Shown here one piece after another: positions 12,080 through 23,979 of a stretch of 64,000 nucleotides of DNA (positions are counted from its first letter, which is position 1; the number at the start of each line of letters is the position of its first letter). A program made the position numbers and the translations under genes. The DNA comes from a virus (taxonomy: Duplodnaviria > Caudoviricetes). The DNA is taken from the IMG/VR virus record IMGVR_UViG_2510461076_000001, positions 2,162 to 66,161 of that record. One strand, given 5' to 3'. A model generated the notes under the pieces. It was not told where the DNA came from and made no database searches. It was given only the letters and a program-made list of their open reading frames with translations.

Positions 12080-12481
12080 ATGTGGCTCTATTCGGACCAG
12101 TGGGCGGCGGGCTTCTTCGATGGGGAAGGCTGCATCCAAATCGAACCTCGCAAGAGCGGGTACGGCATGAGCTACTACCTGAATATTCAGGTGACGCAAA
12201 ACGATCGTCGCCCGCTGGACGAGTTGCAGAAGCGATGGGGCGGAAACGTCACCAGTGCAAGCCGCCACGCGCGAGATCGGTGCTTCCGCTGGCGCATGAG
12301 TTCAACAGCTGCGGCGACGTTCTTAACCGCGATCCTTCCTCACCTACTAGTCAAGAGGGAGCGGGCGCTACTCGCTTTGGGAATGCGAGAACTGATGGGG
12401 TCGAAGGGTGTCCCTGCAACGGACGCCCAACGAGTTGCGAGGTCATCAGCATATGAACGCTTCCGCGAGACATTCTCATGA
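12080..12481 (+). CDS. LAGLIDADG homing endonuclease (single motif)
   Basis: WAAGFFDGEGCI motif, then YLNIQVTQND..L..WGG. Confidence 0.85.
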   Translation: MWLYSDQWAAGFFDGEGCIQIEPRKSGYGMSYYLNIQVTQNDRRPLDELQKRWGGNVTSASRHARDRCFRWRMSSTAAATFLTAILPHLLVKRERALLALGMRELMGSKGVPATDAQRVARSSAYERFRETFS

Positions 12482-13668
12482 CATGGCTTTACGTTCCGAG
12501 CATCTCAACATCCTCTCCATCTGCACCGGAGGCGGCGGACTCGATCTCGGCGTTGAGCTGGCAGTTCCAGGCGCTCGAAGCGTCTGCATGGTCGAGAGGG
12601 AAGCCTTCGCGGTCGCGCAACTGGTATCAGCTATGGAAGCGGGCCTCATGGCTCCAGCGCCTATATGGAGCGATGCCAGAACCTTCGACGGCCGCGCATG
12701 GCGTGGCGCAGTGGACGGCCTCATTGGCGGCATCCCGTGCCAGCCTCATAGCCTCGCCGGCCGCAAGCAAGGGCAGAACGACGAGCGCGACCTCTGGTCT
12801 GACGCCCGTCGCATCATCGTCAGATCCCGCACATGGTTCGTCCTCATTGAAAACGTCGCCGGGATGCTTGCCGCAGGCGCTGACGAAATCGCTGGAGCGG
12901 AACGGGTTCACCGAGACCTTCGGAAGCTTGGCTTCCAGGTGGAGGGAGGATTGTTCACGGCGGCAGAAGTCGGCGCGAGCCATCAGCGTGAACGAGTCTT
13001 CATCCTCGGTGTGGCCGACTCCTGGGACGGAGGAGCGGTCGGAGAATCCGGAGACCTTCGCCAAACGTCGCGCGGCGATCGATCCCTCCAGAAGAATGGG
13101 ACCGAATGGGACGTTGGGCATGAAGGTGCAGGCTTGGACGACGCCTTCAGCCACCGACGGACAGCGCGGCGGGACTATAACGGAAGCCATGTCAGGGACG
13201 AGCTTGGCGCAGCAAGTCAATACGCTTTGGTCGACGCCGAGAGCATCGGACGGCGAGAAGGGCGGCCCGAACCAAGCTTTCGGGGCCGGAGGGATTCCGC
13301 TTCCAGCGCAGACAGTACAGTGGTCGACACCATCGGTAGCGGACGTTCAGGGAGGCAGGATGTCGAGGTCGAAGGAGCGCAGCGACGAGCTCGTGTTGAA
13401 CGGACAGTCGGCCCGGCTTTCCTCTTCGCTCCAGGACCGGATCATTTATCCAGTTGGGCAGGTGTCCTCGCATCCTCGCCGGAGCTTGAACCCGCTTTTC
13501 GTCGAGTGGCTGATGGGCTGGCCTCCCGCATGGACATTGGTCGCGTGGACCGACTTCGCATGCTCGGTAACGGAGTTGTCCCTCTTCAAGCAGCGTATGC
13601 GCTCCGCACTCTTGTCACTCGGCTTGCCGCGCGAGGCTCCGCCGGCGCAGCTCGCCTTGTTCGGATGA
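12478..13668 (+). CDS. Putative beta polypeptide of split C5-MTase (alternative frame; WxTP repeats + motif IX-like)
   Basis: 396-codon open frame; ATG overlaps the LAGLIDADG stop (ATGA); four W[PTS]TP repeats; LNPLFVEWLMGWP. Confidence 0.7.
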   Translation: MTWLYVPSISTSSPSAPEAADSISALSWQFQALEASAWSRGKPSRSRNWYQLWKRASWLQRLYGAMPEPSTAAHGVAQWTASLAASRASLIASPAASKGRTTSATSGLTPVASSSDPAHGSSSLKTSPGCLPQALTKSLERNGFTETFGSLASRWREDCSRRQKSARAISVNESSSSVWPTPGTEERSENPETFAKRRAAIDPSRRMGPNGTLGMKVQAWTTPSATDGQRGGTITEAMSGTSLAQQVNTLWSTPRASDGEKGGPNQAFGAGGIPLPAQTVQWSTPSVADVQGGRMSRSKERSDELVLNGQSARLSSSLQDRIIYPVGQVSSHPRRSLNPLFVEWLMGWPPAWTLVAWTDFACSVTELSLFKQRMRSALLSLGLPREAPPAQLALFG

Positions 13669-13685
13669 TGGAGATCGACGAATGA
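12483..13685 (+). CDS. C5-cytosine DNA methyltransferase alpha polypeptide
   Basis: Motif I LSICTGGGGLDLG, IV GGIPCQPHS, VI IENV, VIII HQRERVF, X RLRMLGNGVVP; no recognisable motif IX in this frame. Confidence 0.9.
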   Translation: MALRSEHLNILSICTGGGGLDLGVELAVPGARSVCMVEREAFAVAQLVSAMEAGLMAPAPIWSDARTFDGRAWRGAVDGLIGGIPCQPHSLAGRKQGQNDERDLWSDARRIIVRSRTWFVLIENVAGMLAAGADEIAGAERVHRDLRKLGFQVEGGLFTAAEVGASHQRERVFILGVADSWDGGAVGESGDLRQTSRGDRSLQKNGTEWDVGHEGAGLDDAFSHRRTARRDYNGSHVRDELGAASQYALVDAESIGRREGRPEPSFRGRRDSASSADSTVVDTIGSGRSGRQDVEVEGAQRRARVERTVGPAFLFAPGPDHLSSWAGVLASSPELEPAFRRVADGLASRMDIGRVDRLRMLGNGVVPLQAAYALRTLVTRLAARGSAGAARLVRMMEIDE

Positions 13686-13882
13686 CCCCTCCCGAAGAGA
13701 TGATCAGTTGGCTCGATCGCCGCATCGCCTCCGCCATGGCTTGGCTCGACGACCATGGAAAAGGCTCGCGCCGTCCTCGTCCTCAGCACGAGATCGAAAC
13801 CAAGGAATACGACATCGCCCGCTTTGAGGAGATCAAGGCGGCGTATGTGAAGGCTCTCGAGCGTCGGGAGAGTGCGGCATGA
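13682..13882 (+). CDS. Hypothetical phage protein
   Basis: ATGA-coupled at both ends. Confidence 0.7.
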   Translation: MTPPEEMISWLDRRIASAMAWLDDHGKGSRRPRPQHEIETKEYDIARFEEIKAAYVKALERRESAA

Positions 13883-15258
13883 ACCAGCTTATCACCCGCG
13901 CTTCGATCGCTGAGATTGCCAGACACCGCGACGCAGCTCTTTCCGCTTTTCAGCGGGCGAGGGCGGCCGAAGCTGAAGCCAAAGAGCAGATGGATGAAGC
14001 CGTCGCGATGCTCAAGGTGGCAGCGCCATTCGCCGCCGGCCTGTTCTCGACCAGAGAGGTCAAGGATCTGACCGACCGTCACTACATCGACGGGCGCGTC
14101 TGGGACTCGGTGATCCACTCGACCGAGCTCAACCACCTCATGGACAAAAAGGCGAAGGACGATCTGCGCCAGCAGCTGATGACCGACGCCCCTGAGTTCA
14201 CCGAAGAAAACGCATACGCCACGATCGAGCACTTCGCGGCCGAAGCCGGGATGATCTTCCGGCGCGGTATCGCGGAAATGTTTTCGAACCTCGATCGGCG
14301 CTTCCGCTCGCACTCAGGCTGGAAGATCGGCAGCCGCGTCATCCTGAACAATATGTTCGGTGTCGACGGCTGGTGGAACTATCATCGAGACCATCGGTCA
14401 ACCTTGCAGGACATCGAGCGCACTTTCCTCATTCTCGATGGGCGAAAGCCTGTCGCTGATTATGCCGGCATTGTCGGCGAACTGGATAATGCCCGCCGCC
14501 TCGATGGTCGCGGGGCTCGGCAGACGGAAGTGCATAGCGAATTCTATACCGTCCGGATCTTCAAGAACGGCAACGCTCATCTGTGGTTCAAACGTGACGA
14601 TCTGGTCGCCAAGGCGAACCGCATGATTGGCGAATACTACGGCGAGGTGATCCCGGAAGAGCGCAAGCATGAGGACGACGGCGGCCTGCATAATCCTAAA
14701 AGGGAGATGGCGAAGAATTTCGGCTTCTTTCCGACGCCCGATAGCCTCGCAGAGCGCACGATCGACCTCGCCAGCCTGTATCACCGCGAGGGCACCCTTC
14801 GCGTTCTGGAGCCATCCGCTGGCACCGGGCAACTTTCGAAGCGAGCCCGGCGGGAAGGGATCGTTGTTGACTGCATCGAATGCCAGCCAGACCTCGCGAA
14901 GAATCTGAAAGCGGCCGGCATCTACGGCCGCGTGGTCTGCGCCGACTTCCTTGCGATCAATCCGTCGGCGACCGGCCTCTACGACCGCGTCATCATGAAC
15001 CCGCCGTTCGATCGCGAGCGCGATATCGACCACGTCATGCACGCCCTCAAGTTCCTCAAGGATGACGGTCTGCTGGTCGCGATCATGTCGGCCCACACCG
15101 AGTTTGCAGAAACCCGCAAGGCCGTCGCTTTCCGCGAGCACATCGCCAAGCTCAACGGCGTCTTCTCCGATAATCCGATGAATTCCTTCGCGAGCGTGGG
15201 GACCAACGTCAACACCATCACGCTGAAGGTCTGGAAGAGCGGGAGGAAGGTCTGGTGA
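13879..15258 (+). CDS. DUF4942-type amino-methyltransferase (NPPF, likely m6A)
   Basis: GFFPTP, VLEPSAGTG, VIMNPPF motifs in the C-terminal half. Confidence 0.85.
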   Translation: MNQLITRASIAEIARHRDAALSAFQRARAAEAEAKEQMDEAVAMLKVAAPFAAGLFSTREVKDLTDRHYIDGRVWDSVIHSTELNHLMDKKAKDDLRQQLMTDAPEFTEENAYATIEHFAAEAGMIFRRGIAEMFSNLDRRFRSHSGWKIGSRVILNNMFGVDGWWNYHRDHRSTLQDIERTFLILDGRKPVADYAGIVGELDNARRLDGRGARQTEVHSEFYTVRIFKNGNAHLWFKRDDLVAKANRMIGEYYGEVIPEERKHEDDGGLHNPKREMAKNFGFFPTPDSLAERTIDLASLYHREGTLRVLEPSAGTGQLSKRARREGIVVDCIECQPDLAKNLKAAGIYGRVVCADFLAINPSATGLYDRVIMNPPFDRERDIDHVMHALKFLKDDGLLVAIMSAHTEFAETRKAVAFREHIAKLNGVFSDNPMNSFASVGTNVNTITLKVWKSGRKVW

Positions 15259-16517
15259 CCGTAACAACTAGGTCCATCCTCGACGGCCGCTGCAAGATCC
15301 ACGTAGGCGATTGCATCGAGGCTATGCGCTCTATGCCGGCGAATTCGGTCGACTGCGTGGTGACGAGCCCTCCCTACTGGGGCCTTCGCGACTATGGCGT
15401 TGCCGGCCAGATCGGGCTTGAACGGACGCTCGGCGAGCACCTCGAGGTGATGGTCTCCGTTTTCCGCGAGGTCTGGCGCATCCTGAAGCCGCGCGGCACG
15501 CTCTGGCTGAACTACGGGGATTGCTACGCGGCTGCTCCGAATGGCAAGAGCGCGGCTGCCTACAAGGCCGACGGCACGGACGATAGGACGTTTCGAGACA
15601 AGCCATTCTCGACGGTCGGACCAATCTACCAGGCCGATCGCCATGGTGATCGCGGCGTGCGTGGAAACGTACATCGCCGAGCTGCTGGCGTGAGTTCACC
15701 TGGTGCAATAGTCGCCGGCGGGACGTTGAAGCCCAAAGACCTCTGCATGATCCCGAACCGCTTGGCGATCGCCCTTCAGGATGATGGATGGTACGTCCGT
15801 TCGGAGATTATTTGGCATAAGCCGAACCCCATGCCGGAAAGCGTCTATGACCGTCCGACATCGGCGCACGAGAAAATCTGGCTGCTCACCAAGGGCGAGG
15901 ATTACTTCTACGACCATGAGTCTATCCGGGAGCCGACGACCGGCACCGCCCATGCTCGCAAGCCAGGCCCGAACAGCCGCCAGAACGTCGATCGAGTGCC
16001 GGTGTCCAAGAAGGCCGGGACCGGTGTCGGCTGGGGTCGGCTCGACAAGATCAACCCTTCCGAATCCGATCGAGGCAGAGACCGCATCAGCAAAGTAGCA
16101 GATGAGGCCGATCCATTCCGCAAGTCAAAGCCCTCATTCGCCGCGGCGACCGGTGACTTGGTCGACACCCGCAACGCGCGGAACGTTTGGTCTATTGCCC
16201 CTCGCGCCTTCCGGGACGCCCACTTCGCCACATTCCCGCCGGCGCTTGCCGAGCGGTGCATGAAGGCCGGAACGCCAAGGACGGTCTGCGGATGCTGCGG
16301 CGCTACGGAAGGATGCGGCCCGATCTGCGAGATGTACGACCGCGAGCCCGGTCTCGTCTTCGATCCTTTCGGCGGAGCTGGCACGGTCTCGCTTGTCGCT
16401 GAGCAGCTTGGCCTTCGCAGCATCATGATCGAGCTGAACCCTGAATATGCGGACATCGCCCAGCGGCGGATCACCGGCGCGCCGATTCCGATCGAGGAAG
16501 ACGAGGTGGCAGCATGA
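15255..16517 (+). CDS. Beta-class N4C/N6A DNA methyltransferase
   Basis: VVTSPPY near the N-terminus, HFATFP, DPFGGAGT near the C-terminus. Confidence 0.9.
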   Translation: MTVTTRSILDGRCKIHVGDCIEAMRSMPANSVDCVVTSPPYWGLRDYGVAGQIGLERTLGEHLEVMVSVFREVWRILKPRGTLWLNYGDCYAAAPNGKSAAAYKADGTDDRTFRDKPFSTVGPIYQADRHGDRGVRGNVHRRAAGVSSPGAIVAGGTLKPKDLCMIPNRLAIALQDDGWYVRSEIIWHKPNPMPESVYDRPTSAHEKIWLLTKGEDYFYDHESIREPTTGTAHARKPGPNSRQNVDRVPVSKKAGTGVGWGRLDKINPSESDRGRDRISKVADEADPFRKSKPSFAAATGDLVDTRNARNVWSIAPRAFRDAHFATFPPALAERCMKAGTPRTVCGCCGATEGCGPICEMYDREPGLVFDPFGGAGTVSLVAEQLGLRSIMIELNPEYADIAQRRITGAPIPIEEDEVAA

Positions 16518-19995: not shown

Positions 19996-20619
19996 ATGGC
20001 GGTGAACGAACAGTGGTATGTGATCCGGTGCGCTCCAGGGTCTCAGCGGAACGCGAGCGGCCAAACTGGCAAGCTGGGCGAGCCGGAAAGCATGATTGAG
20101 CGAACGTTGAGGAACGAAGGTTTCAGCGTCTTCATGCCGACGGTTCACTATGAGGTGCGGCACAATCGCACGAAAAAGTGGATCGAGCGCCGATACCCGC
20201 TGCTGACAGGATATGCCTTCGTCGACATGGCCGGTCGGAATTTTGAGGATGCTCGCCAGGTGGAAGGCGTGATGTGCTTTCTGCGCCGGTCGCGGACCTC
20301 CGGACCATACCGGATGCCGTCCCACGACATCGCAGTCATGCGCGCGGTCGAGGAAGAAAACCGGAATCTGATCTACACGCAGCGCGCCGAGCGTGAGGCA
20401 AGGGAGCGCAAGGCGCTTCACCTGACGACGCGCAAGGATCGGGAGAAGATCATGCCCAAGGACACGATAGCGATGATCTGCGGGCGCAATCCTTTCGCCG
20501 GGCTGATCGCGCGAGTTCTCGGACCGTCATCGCGCGGCAAGGTCAAGGCCGTGATCGAAACGCTGGACAGCTTGGTGGAAATAGACATCCCGCTTGAAAA
20601 TCTAGAGGCGGTAGCCTAG
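19996..20619 (+). CDS. NusG-family transcription antiterminator (phage late regulator)
   Basis: WYVIRCAPG, FMP, PLLTGYAFV, C-terminal KOW-like GPFAG-like segment; sits just before the late genes. Confidence 0.85.
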   Translation: MAVNEQWYVIRCAPGSQRNASGQTGKLGEPESMIERTLRNEGFSVFMPTVHYEVRHNRTKKWIERRYPLLTGYAFVDMAGRNFEDARQVEGVMCFLRRSRTSGPYRMPSHDIAVMRAVEEENRNLIYTQRAEREARERKALHLTTRKDREKIMPKDTIAMICGRNPFAGLIARVLGPSSRGKVKAVIETLDSLVEIDIPLENLEAVA

Positions 20620-21123: not shown

Positions 21124-21345
21124 ATGAGCGCACCCACAGTAAGAGCAAAGTTTCGTTGCAGCGGCAAGGAAGGCAACACCTGCTTTTTCCACACCGTCTG
21201 GTCCGAAGATATCCAGTCCGAGAACGGCCGGTTTACCGTCGCCACCCCATGGGGCGAGCTTCGCATGACCGTCGACAATCCGAGCGCTGCCATCCAGTTC
21301 GAGCCGGGGAAAGAATATTACCTCGACTTCACGCCGGCCGCCTGA
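21124..21345 (+). CDS. Hypothetical phage protein
   Basis: AGGAGA RBS; MSAPTVRAKFRC..ATPWGELRMTVDNP..FEPGKEYYLDFTPA. Confidence 0.75.
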   Translation: MSAPTVRAKFRCSGKEGNTCFFHTVWSEDIQSENGRFTVATPWGELRMTVDNPSAAIQFEPGKEYYLDFTPAA

Positions 21346-21363
21346 GATCGGAGAGGAGCGTCC

Positions 21364-21489
21364 ATGTCAAAGACCACCAGGGCGCTCCTCATCCTCGCCA
21401 TCGTGATCGCTGTCGCTTCGTTCGCGGCGACCCTCGTCGGCTGCGTCAGCTACCAGCCGCCCGGGCGGGATCTGTGGCGGGCGCTCTGA
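21364..21489 (+). CDS. Small lipoprotein (41 aa)
   Basis: GAGGAG RBS; MSKTTRALLILAIVIAVASFAATLVGC with lipobox LVGC; TGATG overlap with the next gene. Confidence 0.65.
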   Translation: MSKTTRALLILAIVIAVASFAATLVGCVSYQPPGRDLWRAL

Positions 21490-22109
21490 TGAACATGCCG
21501 CAGCGGCCCATGCCGCCAGAGGACATGAACGAGGCAGCCGAGATCCGGTTCGAGCCCGCTCATGATCTTATCGAATGGGCGCGGTCATCCTTCATCGATG
21601 AGGCAGCCGACCTCCTGAACGAGGATCATGCCCATCTCCGCTTCGCTTCGATCGGCGCCCTCTGGACAAACGTCCCCAATGGCAGGGCAGGCCGCCGGAT
21701 CATCGGTCAATGCGAGATGGGCTTACCGCCGGCCGGCAAGTGGTCGCGCGCCCGGATCGAATTGCAGTTGCAGCAGTGGTTCGGCGCAGTGCCCGACTTC
21801 CTGCTGACCTTCGATGCCCATTATGCATCAGTATGCTCGGATGCCGAGTTCTGCGCCCTCGTCGAGCATGAGCTCTACCATGCAGGACAAGAGCGCGATG
21901 TGTTCGGCGCCCCGAAGTTTCGCCGCGATGGCAGCCCGGCATTCGGCATGAGGGGACACGACGTAGAAGAGTTCGTCGGCGTCGTCCGCCGCTATGGGGC
22001 AGATGCCGCCGGCGTCCGTGCTCTCGTCGATGCAGCAAACAAGCCGCCTGAAGTATCCCGGGCCAGCATTGGCCATATATGTGGGACATGCCAGTTGCGT
22101 GTCGCGTAA
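21489..22109 (+). CDS. Phage putative metallopeptidase
   Basis: LVEHELYH HExxH motif; HDVEEFVGVVRRYG. Confidence 0.8.
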   Translation: MNMPQRPMPPEDMNEAAEIRFEPAHDLIEWARSSFIDEAADLLNEDHAHLRFASIGALWTNVPNGRAGRRIIGQCEMGLPPAGKWSRARIELQLQQWFGAVPDFLLTFDAHYASVCSDAEFCALVEHELYHAGQERDVFGAPKFRRDGSPAFGMRGHDVEEFVGVVRRYGADAAGVRALVDAANKPPEVSRASIGHICGTCQLRVA

Positions 22110-22130: not shown

Positions 22131-22589
22131 ATGGCAAAACTCAACCGCGAGCAGCAAACCTATGCCGTTCAGGCTCTCGCATGCTTCGATTCTCCGTCGG
22201 TTGTCGCTGCAGCTCTCAGGAAAGAGTTCAACGTCGTACTGACACCGCAGTCGGTAGAATCGTACGACCCGACGAAGAAGGCCGGTCGTAACCTTGCCGC
22301 TCGCTGGAAAGCCTTGTTCGAGGAGACGCGCAAGACCTTCCTCGAAGACACCGCCTCGATCGCGATCAGCCATCGCGCTGTCCGTCTCCGAGCTCTTCAG
22401 CGCATGGCCGACAAGGCAGAGACGCAGGGCAACATGGTTCTGGCATCATCGCTGCTCAAGCAGGCGGCGGAGGAGGTCGGCGGCAGCTACACCAACCGGC
22501 GCGAGCTGACAGGTAAGGACGGAAAGGACTTACCGGTACCAGTCTCGCCGGTGACGATCTTCCAGTTGCCCGACAATGGCAGGAGTTGA
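22131..22589 (+). CDS. Terminase small subunit (DUF2280 type)
   Basis: VQALACFDSPSVV, YDPTK motifs; ELTGKDG C-terminal motif; precedes TerL. Confidence 0.8.
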   Translation: MAKLNREQQTYAVQALACFDSPSVVAAALRKEFNVVLTPQSVESYDPTKKAGRNLAARWKALFEETRKTFLEDTASIAISHRAVRLRALQRMADKAETQGNMVLASSLLKQAAEEVGGSYTNRRELTGKDGKDLPVPVSPVTIFQLPDNGRS

Positions 22590-23979
22590 GGCGGGCGCGG
22601 CAGCCCAGACAGTCATCCGGCCGCAACCGGGCCCACAGACGACATTCCTATCCTCACCGGCCGATATCGCCATCTATGGCGGTGCAGCTGGCGGCGGCAA
22701 GACTTGGGCTCTCCTCATGGAGCCGCTGCGCCACGTCAGCAACCCAGCCTTCGGCGCGGTCTTCTTTCGTCGCAACCTCACGCAGGTCCGAAACGAAGGC
22801 GGTCTCTGGGACGAAAGCGAAAAGCTCTATCCGCATCTGAGCGCGTCACCGCGATCGGCGCCGGACCTGAGCTGGACATTTCCTTCAGGGGCGGGCGTCT
22901 CGTTTGCTCACCTCGAGCACGAGAAGACGATCTATAACTGGCAGGGATCTCAGATCCCGCTCATCTGCTTCGACGAGCTGACGCATTTCAGCGCAAAGCA
23001 GTTCTGGTACATGCTCAGCCGAAACCGATCGATGTGCGGGGTTCGGCCATATGTTCGGGCAACCTGCAATCCTGATGCGGATAGCTGGGTTGCCGAATTC
23101 ATATCCTGGTGGATCAATCCGGAGACCGGATTTGCCATCCAGGAGCGCGCCGGCGTCCTTCGCTGGTTCATTCGCATCGGTGACACGATCATATGGGCGA
23201 GCAGCCCGCAGGAGCTTGAGCACCACGTCAATCCGCTGACCGGCGAGCCTATTCCGCCGAAGTCAGTAACGTTCATCCCGGCCAAGCTCAGCGACAACGC
23301 TCTGCTGATGGCGGCCGACCCTGGCTATCTCGCCAACCTGATGGCGCAGCCGACCGTCGAGCGGGAACGTCTCCTCGGCGGCAACTGGAAGATCCGGCCC
23401 GCTGCCGGGCTGCTATTTCAGCGCGGTTGGTGCCAAGTCGTCGACACGATCCCGGCTGGCGTCCGCTGGATGCGAGGATGGGACTTGGCGGCAACGCCGA
23501 AGACGGAAGGCAATGATCCTGACGGCACGGCCGGCACGAAGGTCGGCAAGCTTCCGGATGGTCGCTACATCGTCGGTCACCACGTCAAGGCATTCATGTC
23601 GCCGAACGGCGTCGAGACCCTGATAAAGAATACCGCCGCCCAAGATGGTGACGAGACTGAAATCTCGCTGCCGCAGGATCCTGGTCAGGCGGGTAAATCT
23701 CAGGTCGCGAGCCTGATCAAACTCCTTGCGGGCTACACGGCAAGGGCAACACCGGAATCCGGCGACAAGGTCACGCGTTTCAGCCCGTTCTCAGCGCAAG
23801 CCGAGGCGGGGAATGTCCTCGTTCTGCGGGCGCCATGGAATGAGGACTGGTTCACGGCGTTGGAAGGCTTCCCTGAAGCAACCCATGACGACGACGCGGA
23901 CAGCACGAGCAGGGCCTTCAACGCTCTTATCAACGATCCGCCGACCGTTGCGATGTTCCTGAGGAATAAGAACCGATGA
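22576..23979 (+). CDS. Terminase large subunit
   Basis: Walker A GGAAGGGKT, Walker B ICFDE, RATCNP, C-terminal HDDDAD nuclease motif. Confidence 0.93.
   Translation: MAGVEAGAAAQTVIRPQPGPQTTFLSSPADIAIYGGAAGGGKTWALLMEPLRHVSNPAFGAVFFRRNLTQVRNEGGLWDESEKLYPHLSASPRSAPDLSWTFPSGAGVSFAHLEHEKTIYNWQGSQIPLICFDELTHFSAKQFWYMLSRNRSMCGVRPYVRATCNPDADSWVAEFISWWINPETGFAIQERAGVLRWFIRIGDTIIWASSPQELEHHVNPLTGEPIPPKSVTFIPAKLSDNALLMAADPGYLANLMAQPTVERERLLGGNWKIRPAAGLLFQRGWCQVVDTIPAGVRWMRGWDLAATPKTEGNDPDGTAGTKVGKLPDGRYIVGHHVKAFMSPNGVETLIKNTAAQDGDETEISLPQDPGQAGKSQVASLIKLLAGYTARATPESGDKVTRFSPFSAQAEAGNVLVLRAPWNEDWFTALEGFPEATHDDDADSTSRAFNALINDPPTVAMFLRNKNR

What the first reader, a model, noticed from the sequence alone, without database searches (positions are those of the whole stretch)
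12478..13685. C5-methyltransferase split across two almost fully overlapping ~400-codon frames
Seen: frame A (12483-13685) has C5-MTase motifs I, IV (PCQ), VI (ENV), VIII (QRERVF) and X (GNGV), but about 190 aa of low-information sequence where the TRD and motif IX belong. Frame B (12478-13668) is open over the same ~1.19 kb. Its ATG overlaps the upstream stop (ATGA). In exactly that gap it carries four W[PTS]TP repeats (13012, 13135, 13228, 13321; spacing 123/93/93 nt) and LNPLFVEWLMGWP, which resembles motif IX (RxLTxRExxRLxGFP). Known: M.EcoHK31I is a heterodimer whose beta chain, carrying motif IX, is encoded in an alternative frame inside alpha. Inference: this is a phage heterodimeric MTase with an unusually long, possibly fully overprinted beta chain. 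The tandem WxTP units may be variable target-recognition modules, giving multispecific or evolvable anti-restriction methylation. Standard annotation would miss frame B.
Basis: partly seen in the sequence, partly recalled or inferred. Interest (0 to 1): 0.88.

Follow-up and report, generated by a model that had tools for sequence, protein, structure and literature searches.

The report
Two-frame phage cytosine methyltransferase gene
One 1.2-kb stretch of this prophage is kept open in two overlapping reading frames that between them hold the parts of a single DNA cytosine methyltransferase, a layout proven so far only for one E. coli enzyme but conserved here across well over a hundred phage and bacterial loci and usually half-annotated.

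Summary
Frame A (12483-13685, 400 aa) and frame B (12478-13668, 396 aa, one base downstream of A) are both stop-free. A carries C5-methyltransferase motifs I, IV, VI, VIII and X. B carries four WxTP units and motif IX.

This is not chance. In loci chosen by A's catalytic domain alone, most of 80 viral and 45 of 56 bacterial loci keep B open end to end. The +1 frame holds about 1 stop (B's own), against 10.5 in the +2 frame and 7.7 in the +1 frame of single-frame control methyltransferases.

Purifying selection alternates between the frames along the gene: A catalytic core, B cassettes, A 314-333, B motif IX, A motif X. Single-chain actinophage enzymes hold A(8-177) and B(178-354) in one frame, which ties B's product to the enzyme.

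Both ORFs start within 5 nt of each other, at the stop codon of the upstream gene. No conserved slippery site was found.

The best reading is two polypeptides, alpha (catalytic) and beta (recognition cassettes plus motif IX), like M.EcoHK31I but overlapping along the whole length.

The scan had already noted this layout on other DNA, in at least 26 genomes. I found no paper on this family.

The parts
12080..12481 (+). Upstream LAGLIDADG-type endonuclease gene. Its TGA (12479-12481) overlaps the ATG of frame B.
   Evidence: PF00961 E 1.2e-7 and phrog_5046 E 2e-23; sequence read
12478..12485 (+). Shared initiation region ATGACATG: B's ATG at 12478, the upstream stop at 12479-12481, A's ATG at 12483.
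   Evidence: The family norm is RTGA-ATG-TGG, with A's start, the upstream stop and B's start within 4 nt.
12483..13685 (+). Frame A ORF (alpha, 400 aa): C5-methyltransferase large domain plus motif X.
   Evidence: hhalign of A 8-177 to single-chain methyltransferases, probability 99.8%
12478..13668 (+). Frame B ORF (beta, 396 aa): N-terminal region, four WxTP cassettes, motif IX and a tail.
   Evidence: The family profile finds 27,854 cluster representatives at E<=1e-3.
12513..13010 (+). Frame A motifs I (12513-12551), IV PCQ (12726-12752), VI ENV (12843-12857) and VIII QRERVF (12984-13010). This segment is constrained in A.
   Evidence: Invariant columns of alignment A2; omega_A 0.2-0.3
12535..12741 (+). 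Frame B residues 20-88: confidently predicted helices, overlapping a stretch where A's synonymous rate is lowered.
   Evidence: AF2 pLDDT 85-93. dS of A is 0.49-0.57 in codons 1-90 against 0.90-0.97 in codons 91-150, and the control is flat.
13012..13476 (+). Frame B WxTP cassettes of types J (13012-13134), H (13135-13227), A (13228-13320) and B (13321-13476). Frame A here is a neutral linker (A residues 178-312).
   Evidence: omega_B 0.65-0.71 and omega_A 0.85-1.10; cassette typing; hhalign to in-frame repeats of single-chain enzymes
13422..13481 (+). Frame A residues 314-333, LFAPGPDHLSSWAGVLASSP: constrained in A and neutral in B.
   Evidence: Invariant P317, P319, W325, P333; omega_A 0.49 [0.30-0.78], omega_B 0.91
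13477..13536 (+). Frame B motif IX, RRSLNPLFVEWLMGWPPAWT (B residues 334-353).
   Evidence: omega_B 0.10 [0.03-0.22], omega_A 0.72; aligned to NPRLxAAFxEWMMGWPxGW of single-chain enzymes
13542..13589 (+). Frame A motif X region, RVDRLRMLGNGVVPLQ.
   Evidence: Invariant L361, G362, N363, G364, V365; omega_A 0.18; hhalign to motif X of single-chain enzymes, probability 94.9%

Best explanation
The locus is a same-strand, full-length overlapping gene pair that encodes a two-polypeptide phage C5 DNA methyltransferase.

Alpha (frame A) is the AdoMet-binding and catalytic large domain. It holds motifs I-VIII, then an unconstrained linker of about 135 aa, then a conserved LFxPGP..W segment, and finally motif X.

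Beta (frame B) starts 5 nt upstream of alpha, at the stop codon of the preceding gene. It reads through a loosely constrained N-terminal region of about 178 aa, then supplies a variable set of WxTP cassettes (here types J-H-A-B) and motif IX. In a single-chain enzyme these parts make up the variable/recognition region and the core of the small domain.

Inferred, not shown: ribosomes that terminate or land at the shared initiation region pick one of the two neighbouring start codons. Alpha and beta then assemble into an active enzyme that methylates phage DNA, most likely as protection against host restriction.
For: - Both frames are open in the window.
- Three cultured phages of cyanobacterial and betaproteobacterial (Acidovorax, Burkholderia) hosts also have both frames open end to end.
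- Of 80 IMG/VR loci picked by A's N-terminal domain alone, most keep B open over the same span. Fifty-five non-redundant loci passed a strict two-frame filter. Of 56 complete bacterial loci, 45 keep both frames, down to 43-47% identity in Planctomycetota, Myxococcota and Dehalococcoidia.
- Stops in +1: 1.09, against 10.5 in +2 and 5.1 after synonymous shuffling. Controls have 7.7. GC3 is 0.63, about the same as overall GC at 0.65.
- The start geometry RTGA-ATG-TGG is conserved, with a purine-rich stretch upstream.
- Constraint alternates in five segments: A core, B cassettes, A 314-333, B motif IX, A motif X.
- Fusion ('Rosetta stone') evidence: in actinophage single-chain enzymes A 8-177 (probability 99.8%), B 178-354 (98.5%) and A's motif X (94.9%) lie in one frame. 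The model of such an enzyme matches M.HhaI at E 1e-16.
- A second methyltransferase lineage (SEN5, Tunturi_1, PhiXhv-5) shows the same two-frame layout in most of 77 loci, with B starting 16-35 codons inside A.
- Gene callers have predicted B-like proteins in thousands of clusters.
Against: - No direct evidence that either frame is translated.
- The DNA order of the parts is collinear with a single-chain enzyme, which is also what a frameshifted single product would need.
- The WxTP region is predicted disordered both in beta alone and in a single-chain relative, so its role as a recognition domain is inferred from position and homology only.
- B's N-terminal 178 aa show only weak sequence constraint: omega_B 0.5-0.8 against a control bias of 0.89.
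- The selection estimates come from a home-made OLGenie-style count on non-independent pairs, and the cassette alignment is uncertain.
Confidence: 0.7

Rival explanations
1. A single polypeptide is made by programmed frameshifting: +1 near 13010 and -1 near 13540. This would rebuild a canonical enzyme with motifs I-VIII, the variable region, IX and X in order.
For: Homology to single-chain enzymes passes from A residue 177 to B residue 178, and from B residue 354 back to A, with no gap at the DNA level. The broad selection pattern is A, then B, then A.
Against: - There is no conserved slippery heptamer, stop codon or rare codon at either junction, and indels in multiples of three occur right there.
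- Frameshifting does not explain why B stays open for 178 codons upstream with a conserved ATG, why A stays open through about 135 neutral codons, or why B's tail stays open. All three hold in over 100 loci.
- The fine map has four switches of constraint, and A 314-333 would be lost from a double-shift product.
- In the SEN5-type lineage B has its own internal start.
Confidence: 0.1
2. Beta is a real protein but not a subunit of the methyltransferase. It might be a regulator or a counter-defence protein that happens to be overprinted on the gene.
For: B's N-terminal region has no known family. In phi1026b the B frame reads on into a ParB-like gene. The cassettes are predicted disordered.
Against: B 178-354 is homologous to the segment that lies between motifs VIII and X within single-chain enzymes. 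Frame A lacks a constrained motif IX of its own, with omega_A 0.72 there. In the L082 variant, B carries motif X and A lacks it.
Confidence: 0.1
3. Only frame A is a gene, and frame B is a chance or compositional shadow ORF. Alternatively, the locus is a frameshifted pseudogene or an assembly error.
For: G+C is 62-65%, which lengthens shadow ORFs. A few homologous loci do have broken or swapped frames: L030, L046, L080, L280.
Against: High-G+C control methyltransferases carry 7.7 stops in +1. B is open in most independent loci down to 43% identity. B's motif IX has omega 0.10. The same layout recurs in isolate phage genomes and in complete bacterial chromosomes.
Confidence: 0.03

Closest known systems
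M.EcoHK31I (E. coli HK31, YGGCCR): alpha/beta C5-methyltransferase with the beta gene nested in another frame of alpha (Lee, Kam & Shaw 1995, as described in PMC2836561 and PMC3404938)
   Same: The C5-methyltransferase motifs are divided between two same-strand overlapping frames. [quoted passage not shown]
   Different: In M.EcoHK31I, beta is a small chain nested inside alpha and alpha keeps the TRD. Here beta is as long as alpha (396 against 400 aa) and starts at the same initiation region. It also carries the variable cassette region, and alpha's centre evolves neutrally. Sequence relatedness to M.EcoHK31I was not tested because no sequence was at hand.
M.AquI (CYCGRG): two-subunit C5-methyltransferase, alpha with motifs I-VIII and beta with IX-X (PMC3404938)
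   Same: The enzyme is split within or next to the variable region into two chains that must assemble.
   Different: According to PMC3404938, M.AquI's smaller subunit carries motifs IX and X. Here motif X stays with alpha and the genes overlap fully. The distant variant L082 is closer to M.AquI, because its B frame carries X, but its frames still overlap.
Single-chain actinophage C5-methyltransferases (e.g. Mycobacterium phages Shauna1 gp67 and DLane gp65)
   Same: They are homologous to A 8-177, to B 178-354 (LPTP/WPTP repeats and motif IX) and to A's motif X. The fold matches M.HhaI.
   Different: All parts lie in one frame, and their +1 frame carries 7.7 stops on average. Two fossil cassettes remain in the +1 frame just after motif VIII.
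Multispecific Bacillus phage C5-methyltransferases (SPR, phi3T type; from general knowledge, not checked here)
   Same: A variable region built from several tandem modules between motifs VIII and IX.
   Different: In those enzymes each module is a proven TRD within a single chain. Here the modules are 31-50 aa WxTP units of unknown function, in a separate frame, and predicted disordered.

Membership tests
C5 DNA methyltransferase (PF00145 / TIGR00675) | Motifs I (AdoMet site), IV (PCQ with the catalytic Cys), VI (ENV) and VIII (QxRxR) in one chain | tested here: met
   Frame A: PF00145 at 91.4 bits against a cut-off of 22, but only profile positions 2-164 of 324. TIGR00675 scores 70.1 bits, below its cut-off of 100.65. 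The motif residues are invariant in alignment A2.
C5 DNA methyltransferase (PF00145 / TIGR00675) | Variable region, motif IX and motif X in the same chain as motifs I-VIII | tested here: not met
   Motif X is in frame A, and motif IX and the cassettes are in frame B. A's centre has omega about 1.
M.EcoHK31I-type nested two-chain C5-methyltransferase | Second chain encoded in another frame of the same DNA and carrying motif IX | tested here: met
   Frame B 12478-13668, with motif IX at 13477-13536 and omega_B 0.10.
M.EcoHK31I-type nested two-chain C5-methyltransferase | Alpha retains the target-recognition domain | tested here: not met
   The only constrained sequence between motifs VIII and IX is in frame B. 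Frame A is neutral there apart from residues 314-333.
M.EcoHK31I-type nested two-chain C5-methyltransferase | Both polypeptides are made and both are needed for activity | not testable with these tools
   This needs expression and methylation assays.
Programmed ribosomal frameshift gene | Conserved slippery or shifty site at the frame junction, with the zero frame closing downstream | tested here: not met
   No conserved heptamer or stop at either junction, and both frames stay open throughout.
M.AquI-type split C5-methyltransferase | Beta chain carries motifs IX and X | tested here: not met
   GNGV lies in frame A. Only the distant variant L082 has it in frame B.

The most novel reading that the evidence does not exclude
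This would be one of the longest conserved same-strand dual-coding regions in prokaryotic viruses. Two full-length proteins would be made from one initiation region by a choice between start codons 2-5 nt apart, with functional constraint hopping four times between the frames.

In this reading beta's N-terminal region, overprinted on the catalytic core (helices at residues 20-88), is a de novo domain that has gained a function such as docking beta onto alpha. The freely shuffled WxTP cassettes would then reprogram the enzyme's target specificity.
Probability: 0.3. Interest if true: 0.9.

Novelty: new variant of a known kind. Interest (0 to 1): 0.8.

Why it matters
If both chains are made, about 1.2 kb of DNA encodes two 400-aa proteins in the same direction, conserved across phages of many phyla. 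That is far beyond the short nested beta gene of M.EcoHK31I, which is the only proven precedent.

Three consequences follow.

- It would be a natural, abundant system for studying how overprinted genes arise and are maintained, how one initiation site sets subunit stoichiometry, and how a methyltransferase's recognition part can be swapped as cassettes.
- Annotation pipelines record only one of the two proteins, call B 'hypothetical', or name either frame 'DNA methyltransferase'. Phage methylome predictions and protein family databases are therefore systematically incomplete for this family.
- Cultured phages carry the same layout (phi1026b, SEN5, Alfacinha1, Yong-M2-251, PhiXhv-5), which makes it directly testable.

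Tried and rejected

Searches that gave nothing useful:
- Foldseek of the beta model against the PDB: no match.
- Protein Atlas look-up of B 1-178: only viral hypothetical clusters at scores of 0.90 or less.
- Pfam and NCBIfam on frame B: no family.
- Literature searches found no description of this family beyond M.EcoHK31I and M.AquI.

Ideas considered and dropped:
- Independent homology of B's N-terminal region between the window-type and SEN5-type lineages. hhalign extends to B residue 83, but the aligned stretches lie over A's conserved motifs IV and VIII, so the similarity may be a by-product of A. It was not used as evidence.
- A's ELEPAFRRVADGLA as a second motif IX. It aligns to motif IX of single-chain enzymes, but A is nearly neutral there (omega_A 0.72). 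The shared L, P, F and G come from runs such as CTTG, CCCG, TTTC and GGGC that read alike in both frames. It was rejected as a by-product.
- A chimeric A-B-A translation for folding was not attempted, because altered sequences are not accepted.

Full report
**Observation**

The window holds two same-strand ORFs that overlap almost completely. Frame A is open from 12408, with its most likely start at ATG 12483, to 13685. Frame B runs from 12478 to 13668 and lies one base downstream of A's register. The third same-strand frame is full of stops.

Frame A has C5-methyltransferase motifs I, IV (PCQ), VI (ENV), VIII (QRERVF) and X (GNGV). Pfam PF00145 covers only A residues 9-180, which is the first half of the model.

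Frame B has no Pfam or NCBIfam family. It does hit PHROG families, one of them named DNA methyltransferase. WPTP, WTTP, WSTP and WSTP start at 13012, 13135, 13228 and 13321, and LNPLFVEWLMGWP follows. B's ATG overlaps the TGA of the upstream LAGLIDADG-type endonuclease gene.

**Context**

The window is part of a 66-kb IMG/VR provirus record that CheckV rates complete. Nearby genes include:
- two further methyltransferase genes directly downstream;
- an HNH/endonuclease VII gene;
- a primosomal protein and an antiterminator;
- an IS-type transposase;
- the large terminase and the portal protein.

The nearest bacterial relatives of the gene are in Rhizobiales.

**Is it more than chance?**

I collected homologous loci using only A's N-terminal catalytic domain as the query, so the sample is blind to frame B.

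- Of 80 IMG/VR loci, most have frame B open over the same span as A. Fifty-five non-redundant loci passed a strict two-frame filter.
- The clear exceptions carry a single stop or frames swapped by an indel: L030, L046 and L080. L082 is a distinct variant.
- Of 56 complete loci in representative bacterial genomes, 45 keep the layout. These include Planctomycetota, Myxococcota and Dehalococcoidia at 43-59% identity.
- In 55 non-redundant loci the +1 frame has 1.09 stops on average, which is B's own terminator. The +2 frame has 10.5, and shuffling synonymous codons within each gene gives 5.1.
- Sixty-nine single-frame actinophage C5-methyltransferases of similar G+C have 7.7 stops in their +1 frame, as their own shuffles predict.
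- GC3 in the two-frame family (0.63) is no higher than overall G+C (0.65), as expected when no codon position is free.
- Three cultured phages show both frames open end to end: Synechococcus phage Yong-M2-251, Acidovorax phage Alfacinha1 and Burkholderia phage phi1026b.
- A profile of frame B finds 27,854 cluster representatives at E<=1e-3 and 2,972 at E<=1e-30 among 1.84 billion. More than 100 database proteins match B over 99% of its length, and the few that carry a name are called hypothetical.

**Start region**

In most loci the junction reads RTGA-ATG-TGG-CTC-TAC. The RTG is A's start. The TGA is the stop of the upstream gene. The ATG directly after it is B's start. A purine-rich stretch lies 8-16 nt upstream.

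The window and four other loci have the variant ATGAC(A/C)TGG, in which B's ATG overlaps the upstream stop and A's ATG lies 5 nt further on. One initiation or re-initiation site thus serves both frames.

**Which frame is constrained where**

I used an OLGenie-style count on pairs of aligned loci. It gives five segments.

| Segment (B residues) | Content | omega_A | omega_B |
|---|---|---|---|
| 1-178 | A catalytic core | 0.2-0.3 | 0.5-0.8 (same statistic on controls: 0.89) |
| 179-330 | B cassettes | 0.85-1.10 | 0.65-0.71 |
| 300-333 | A's LFxPGP..W segment | 0.49 | 0.91 |
| 334-353 | B motif IX | 0.72 | 0.10 |
| 354-376 | A motif X | 0.18 | 0.48 |

A's synonymous rate is lower in codons 1-90 (0.49-0.57) than in codons 91-150 (0.90-0.97). 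The control family shows no such 5' dip. This coincides with B residues 20-88, which AlphaFold2 predicts as confident helices with pLDDT 85-93. I take this as modest evidence that part of B's N-terminal region is more than a read-through leader.

These estimates rest on non-independent pairs and on an uncertain alignment in the cassette region.

**What B's parts are**

Profile-profile comparison with single-chain actinophage methyltransferases gives three matches:
- A 8-177 aligns to their motifs I-VIII (probability 99.8%).
- B 178-354 aligns to their LPTP repeats and NPRLxAAFxEWMMGWPxGW motif IX (98.5%).
- A's C-terminus aligns to their motif X (94.9%).

In those enzymes everything lies in one frame. 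A model of one of them (pTM 0.76) matches M.HhaI and M.HaeIII at E about 1e-16. This is fusion evidence that B's product works with A's product in one enzyme.

The repeat region is predicted disordered even in the single-chain model, so its role in recognition is inferred and not shown.

The cassettes fall into about ten recurrent types. Almost every homologue has a different combination, and the window has types J-H-A-B.

**Breadth**

A second C5-methyltransferase lineage has the same two-frame layout in most of 77 loci. Its members include Salmonella phage SEN5, Tunturiibacter phage Tunturi_1 and Xanthomonas phage PhiXhv-5. In this lineage B starts 16-35 codons inside A.

Annotation varies from record to record. 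Phi1026b names frame A, Alfacinha1 and Tunturi_1 name frame B, and PhiXhv-5 lists both overlapping CDSs.

**Mechanism**

The two-polypeptide model explains every conserved feature:
- B's conserved start codon;
- B's open 178-codon leader and 43-codon tail;
- A's open but neutral linker;
- four switches of constraint between the frames.

A double programmed frameshift would reproduce the canonical motif order, but it fails on four counts:
- There is no conserved slippery site, and indels occur at both junctions.
- It gives no reason for the extra open stretches.
- It would drop A 314-333 from the product.
- It does not fit the internal B starts of the second lineage.

A chance shadow ORF or a pseudogene is excluded. 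An unrelated function for beta cannot be excluded, but the fusion evidence argues against it.

**Comparison with known systems**

M.EcoHK31I is the only proven case of a C5-methyltransferase whose second chain is nested in another frame (PMC2836561, PMC3404938). In that enzyme alpha keeps the TRD and beta holds only motif IX.

Here the split runs between the domains. Alpha is the large domain plus motif X. Beta holds the variable region plus motif IX. The overlap also spans the whole gene. M.AquI splits differently, with beta carrying motifs IX-X. I found no paper that describes this family.

The scan itself has noted the same layout on other DNA in at least 26 genomes. Those notes agree with this report but are not independent evidence.

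**Limits**

Translation of either frame, binding of alpha to beta, and target specificity are untested. Three tools could not be used: complex prediction, the look-up of encoding contigs and the look-up of sequencing runs.

Noticed in passing
window 12080-12481: A LAGLIDADG-type endonuclease gene sits directly upstream of the two-frame gene. Its stop overlaps B's ATG as ATGA, whereas most homologues have RTGA-ATG-TGG after a different upstream gene. It may be a mobile insertion that reshaped the initiation region.
   Followed up: partly
window 13879-16517: Two more methyltransferase genes follow directly: DUF4942 plus an N6-type methyltransferase domain (13879-15258) and a phrog_67 methyltransferase (15255-16517). 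That makes three DNA methyltransferase genes in a row.
   Followed up: partly
window 21156-22109: An IS-type transposase gene (phrog_513, E 4e-74) lies between the antiterminator (19996-20619) and the large terminase (22576-23979) of the provirus.
   Followed up: no
L003 (Burkholderia phage phi1026b) 1847-3967: Frame B has no stop at its usual end and reads on into the ParB-like gene, giving a 706-aa ORF. Related Burkholderia phage records annotate the DNA under the frame-B match as 'chromosome partitioning protein'. This may be a beta-ParB fusion.
   Followed up: partly
L082 2499-4408: This is a distant variant at 49% identity. Its frame B holds the N-terminal region, the WPTP cassettes and motif X but no motif IX, and its frame A lacks motif X. 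The split resembles M.AquI, but the frames still overlap.
   Followed up: partly
L085 (Shauna1) and L167 (DLane), just after motif VIII: These single-chain mycobacteriophage methyltransferases keep two cassette-like units (LPTPRASRG..., LMPTPRATDGTKGGPNQ...) in the +1 frame before a stop, while frame 0 reads the same DNA as filler. This hints that single-chain and overlapping forms interconvert by frameshifts.
   Followed up: partly
window 13482-13524: The DNA for B's motif IX encodes L, P, F and G at the same positions in both frames. The runs CTTG, CCCG, TTTC and GGGC read alike when shifted by one base, so frame A shows a faint motif-IX-like string (ELEPAFRRVADGLA) even though it is nearly neutral there.
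   Followed up: yes
window 13682-13882: A small downstream ORF of 66 aa starts with an ATG that overlaps A's stop (ATGA). All substitution classes are low in the last 20 codons of B, which may reflect signals for this downstream gene.
   Followed up: no
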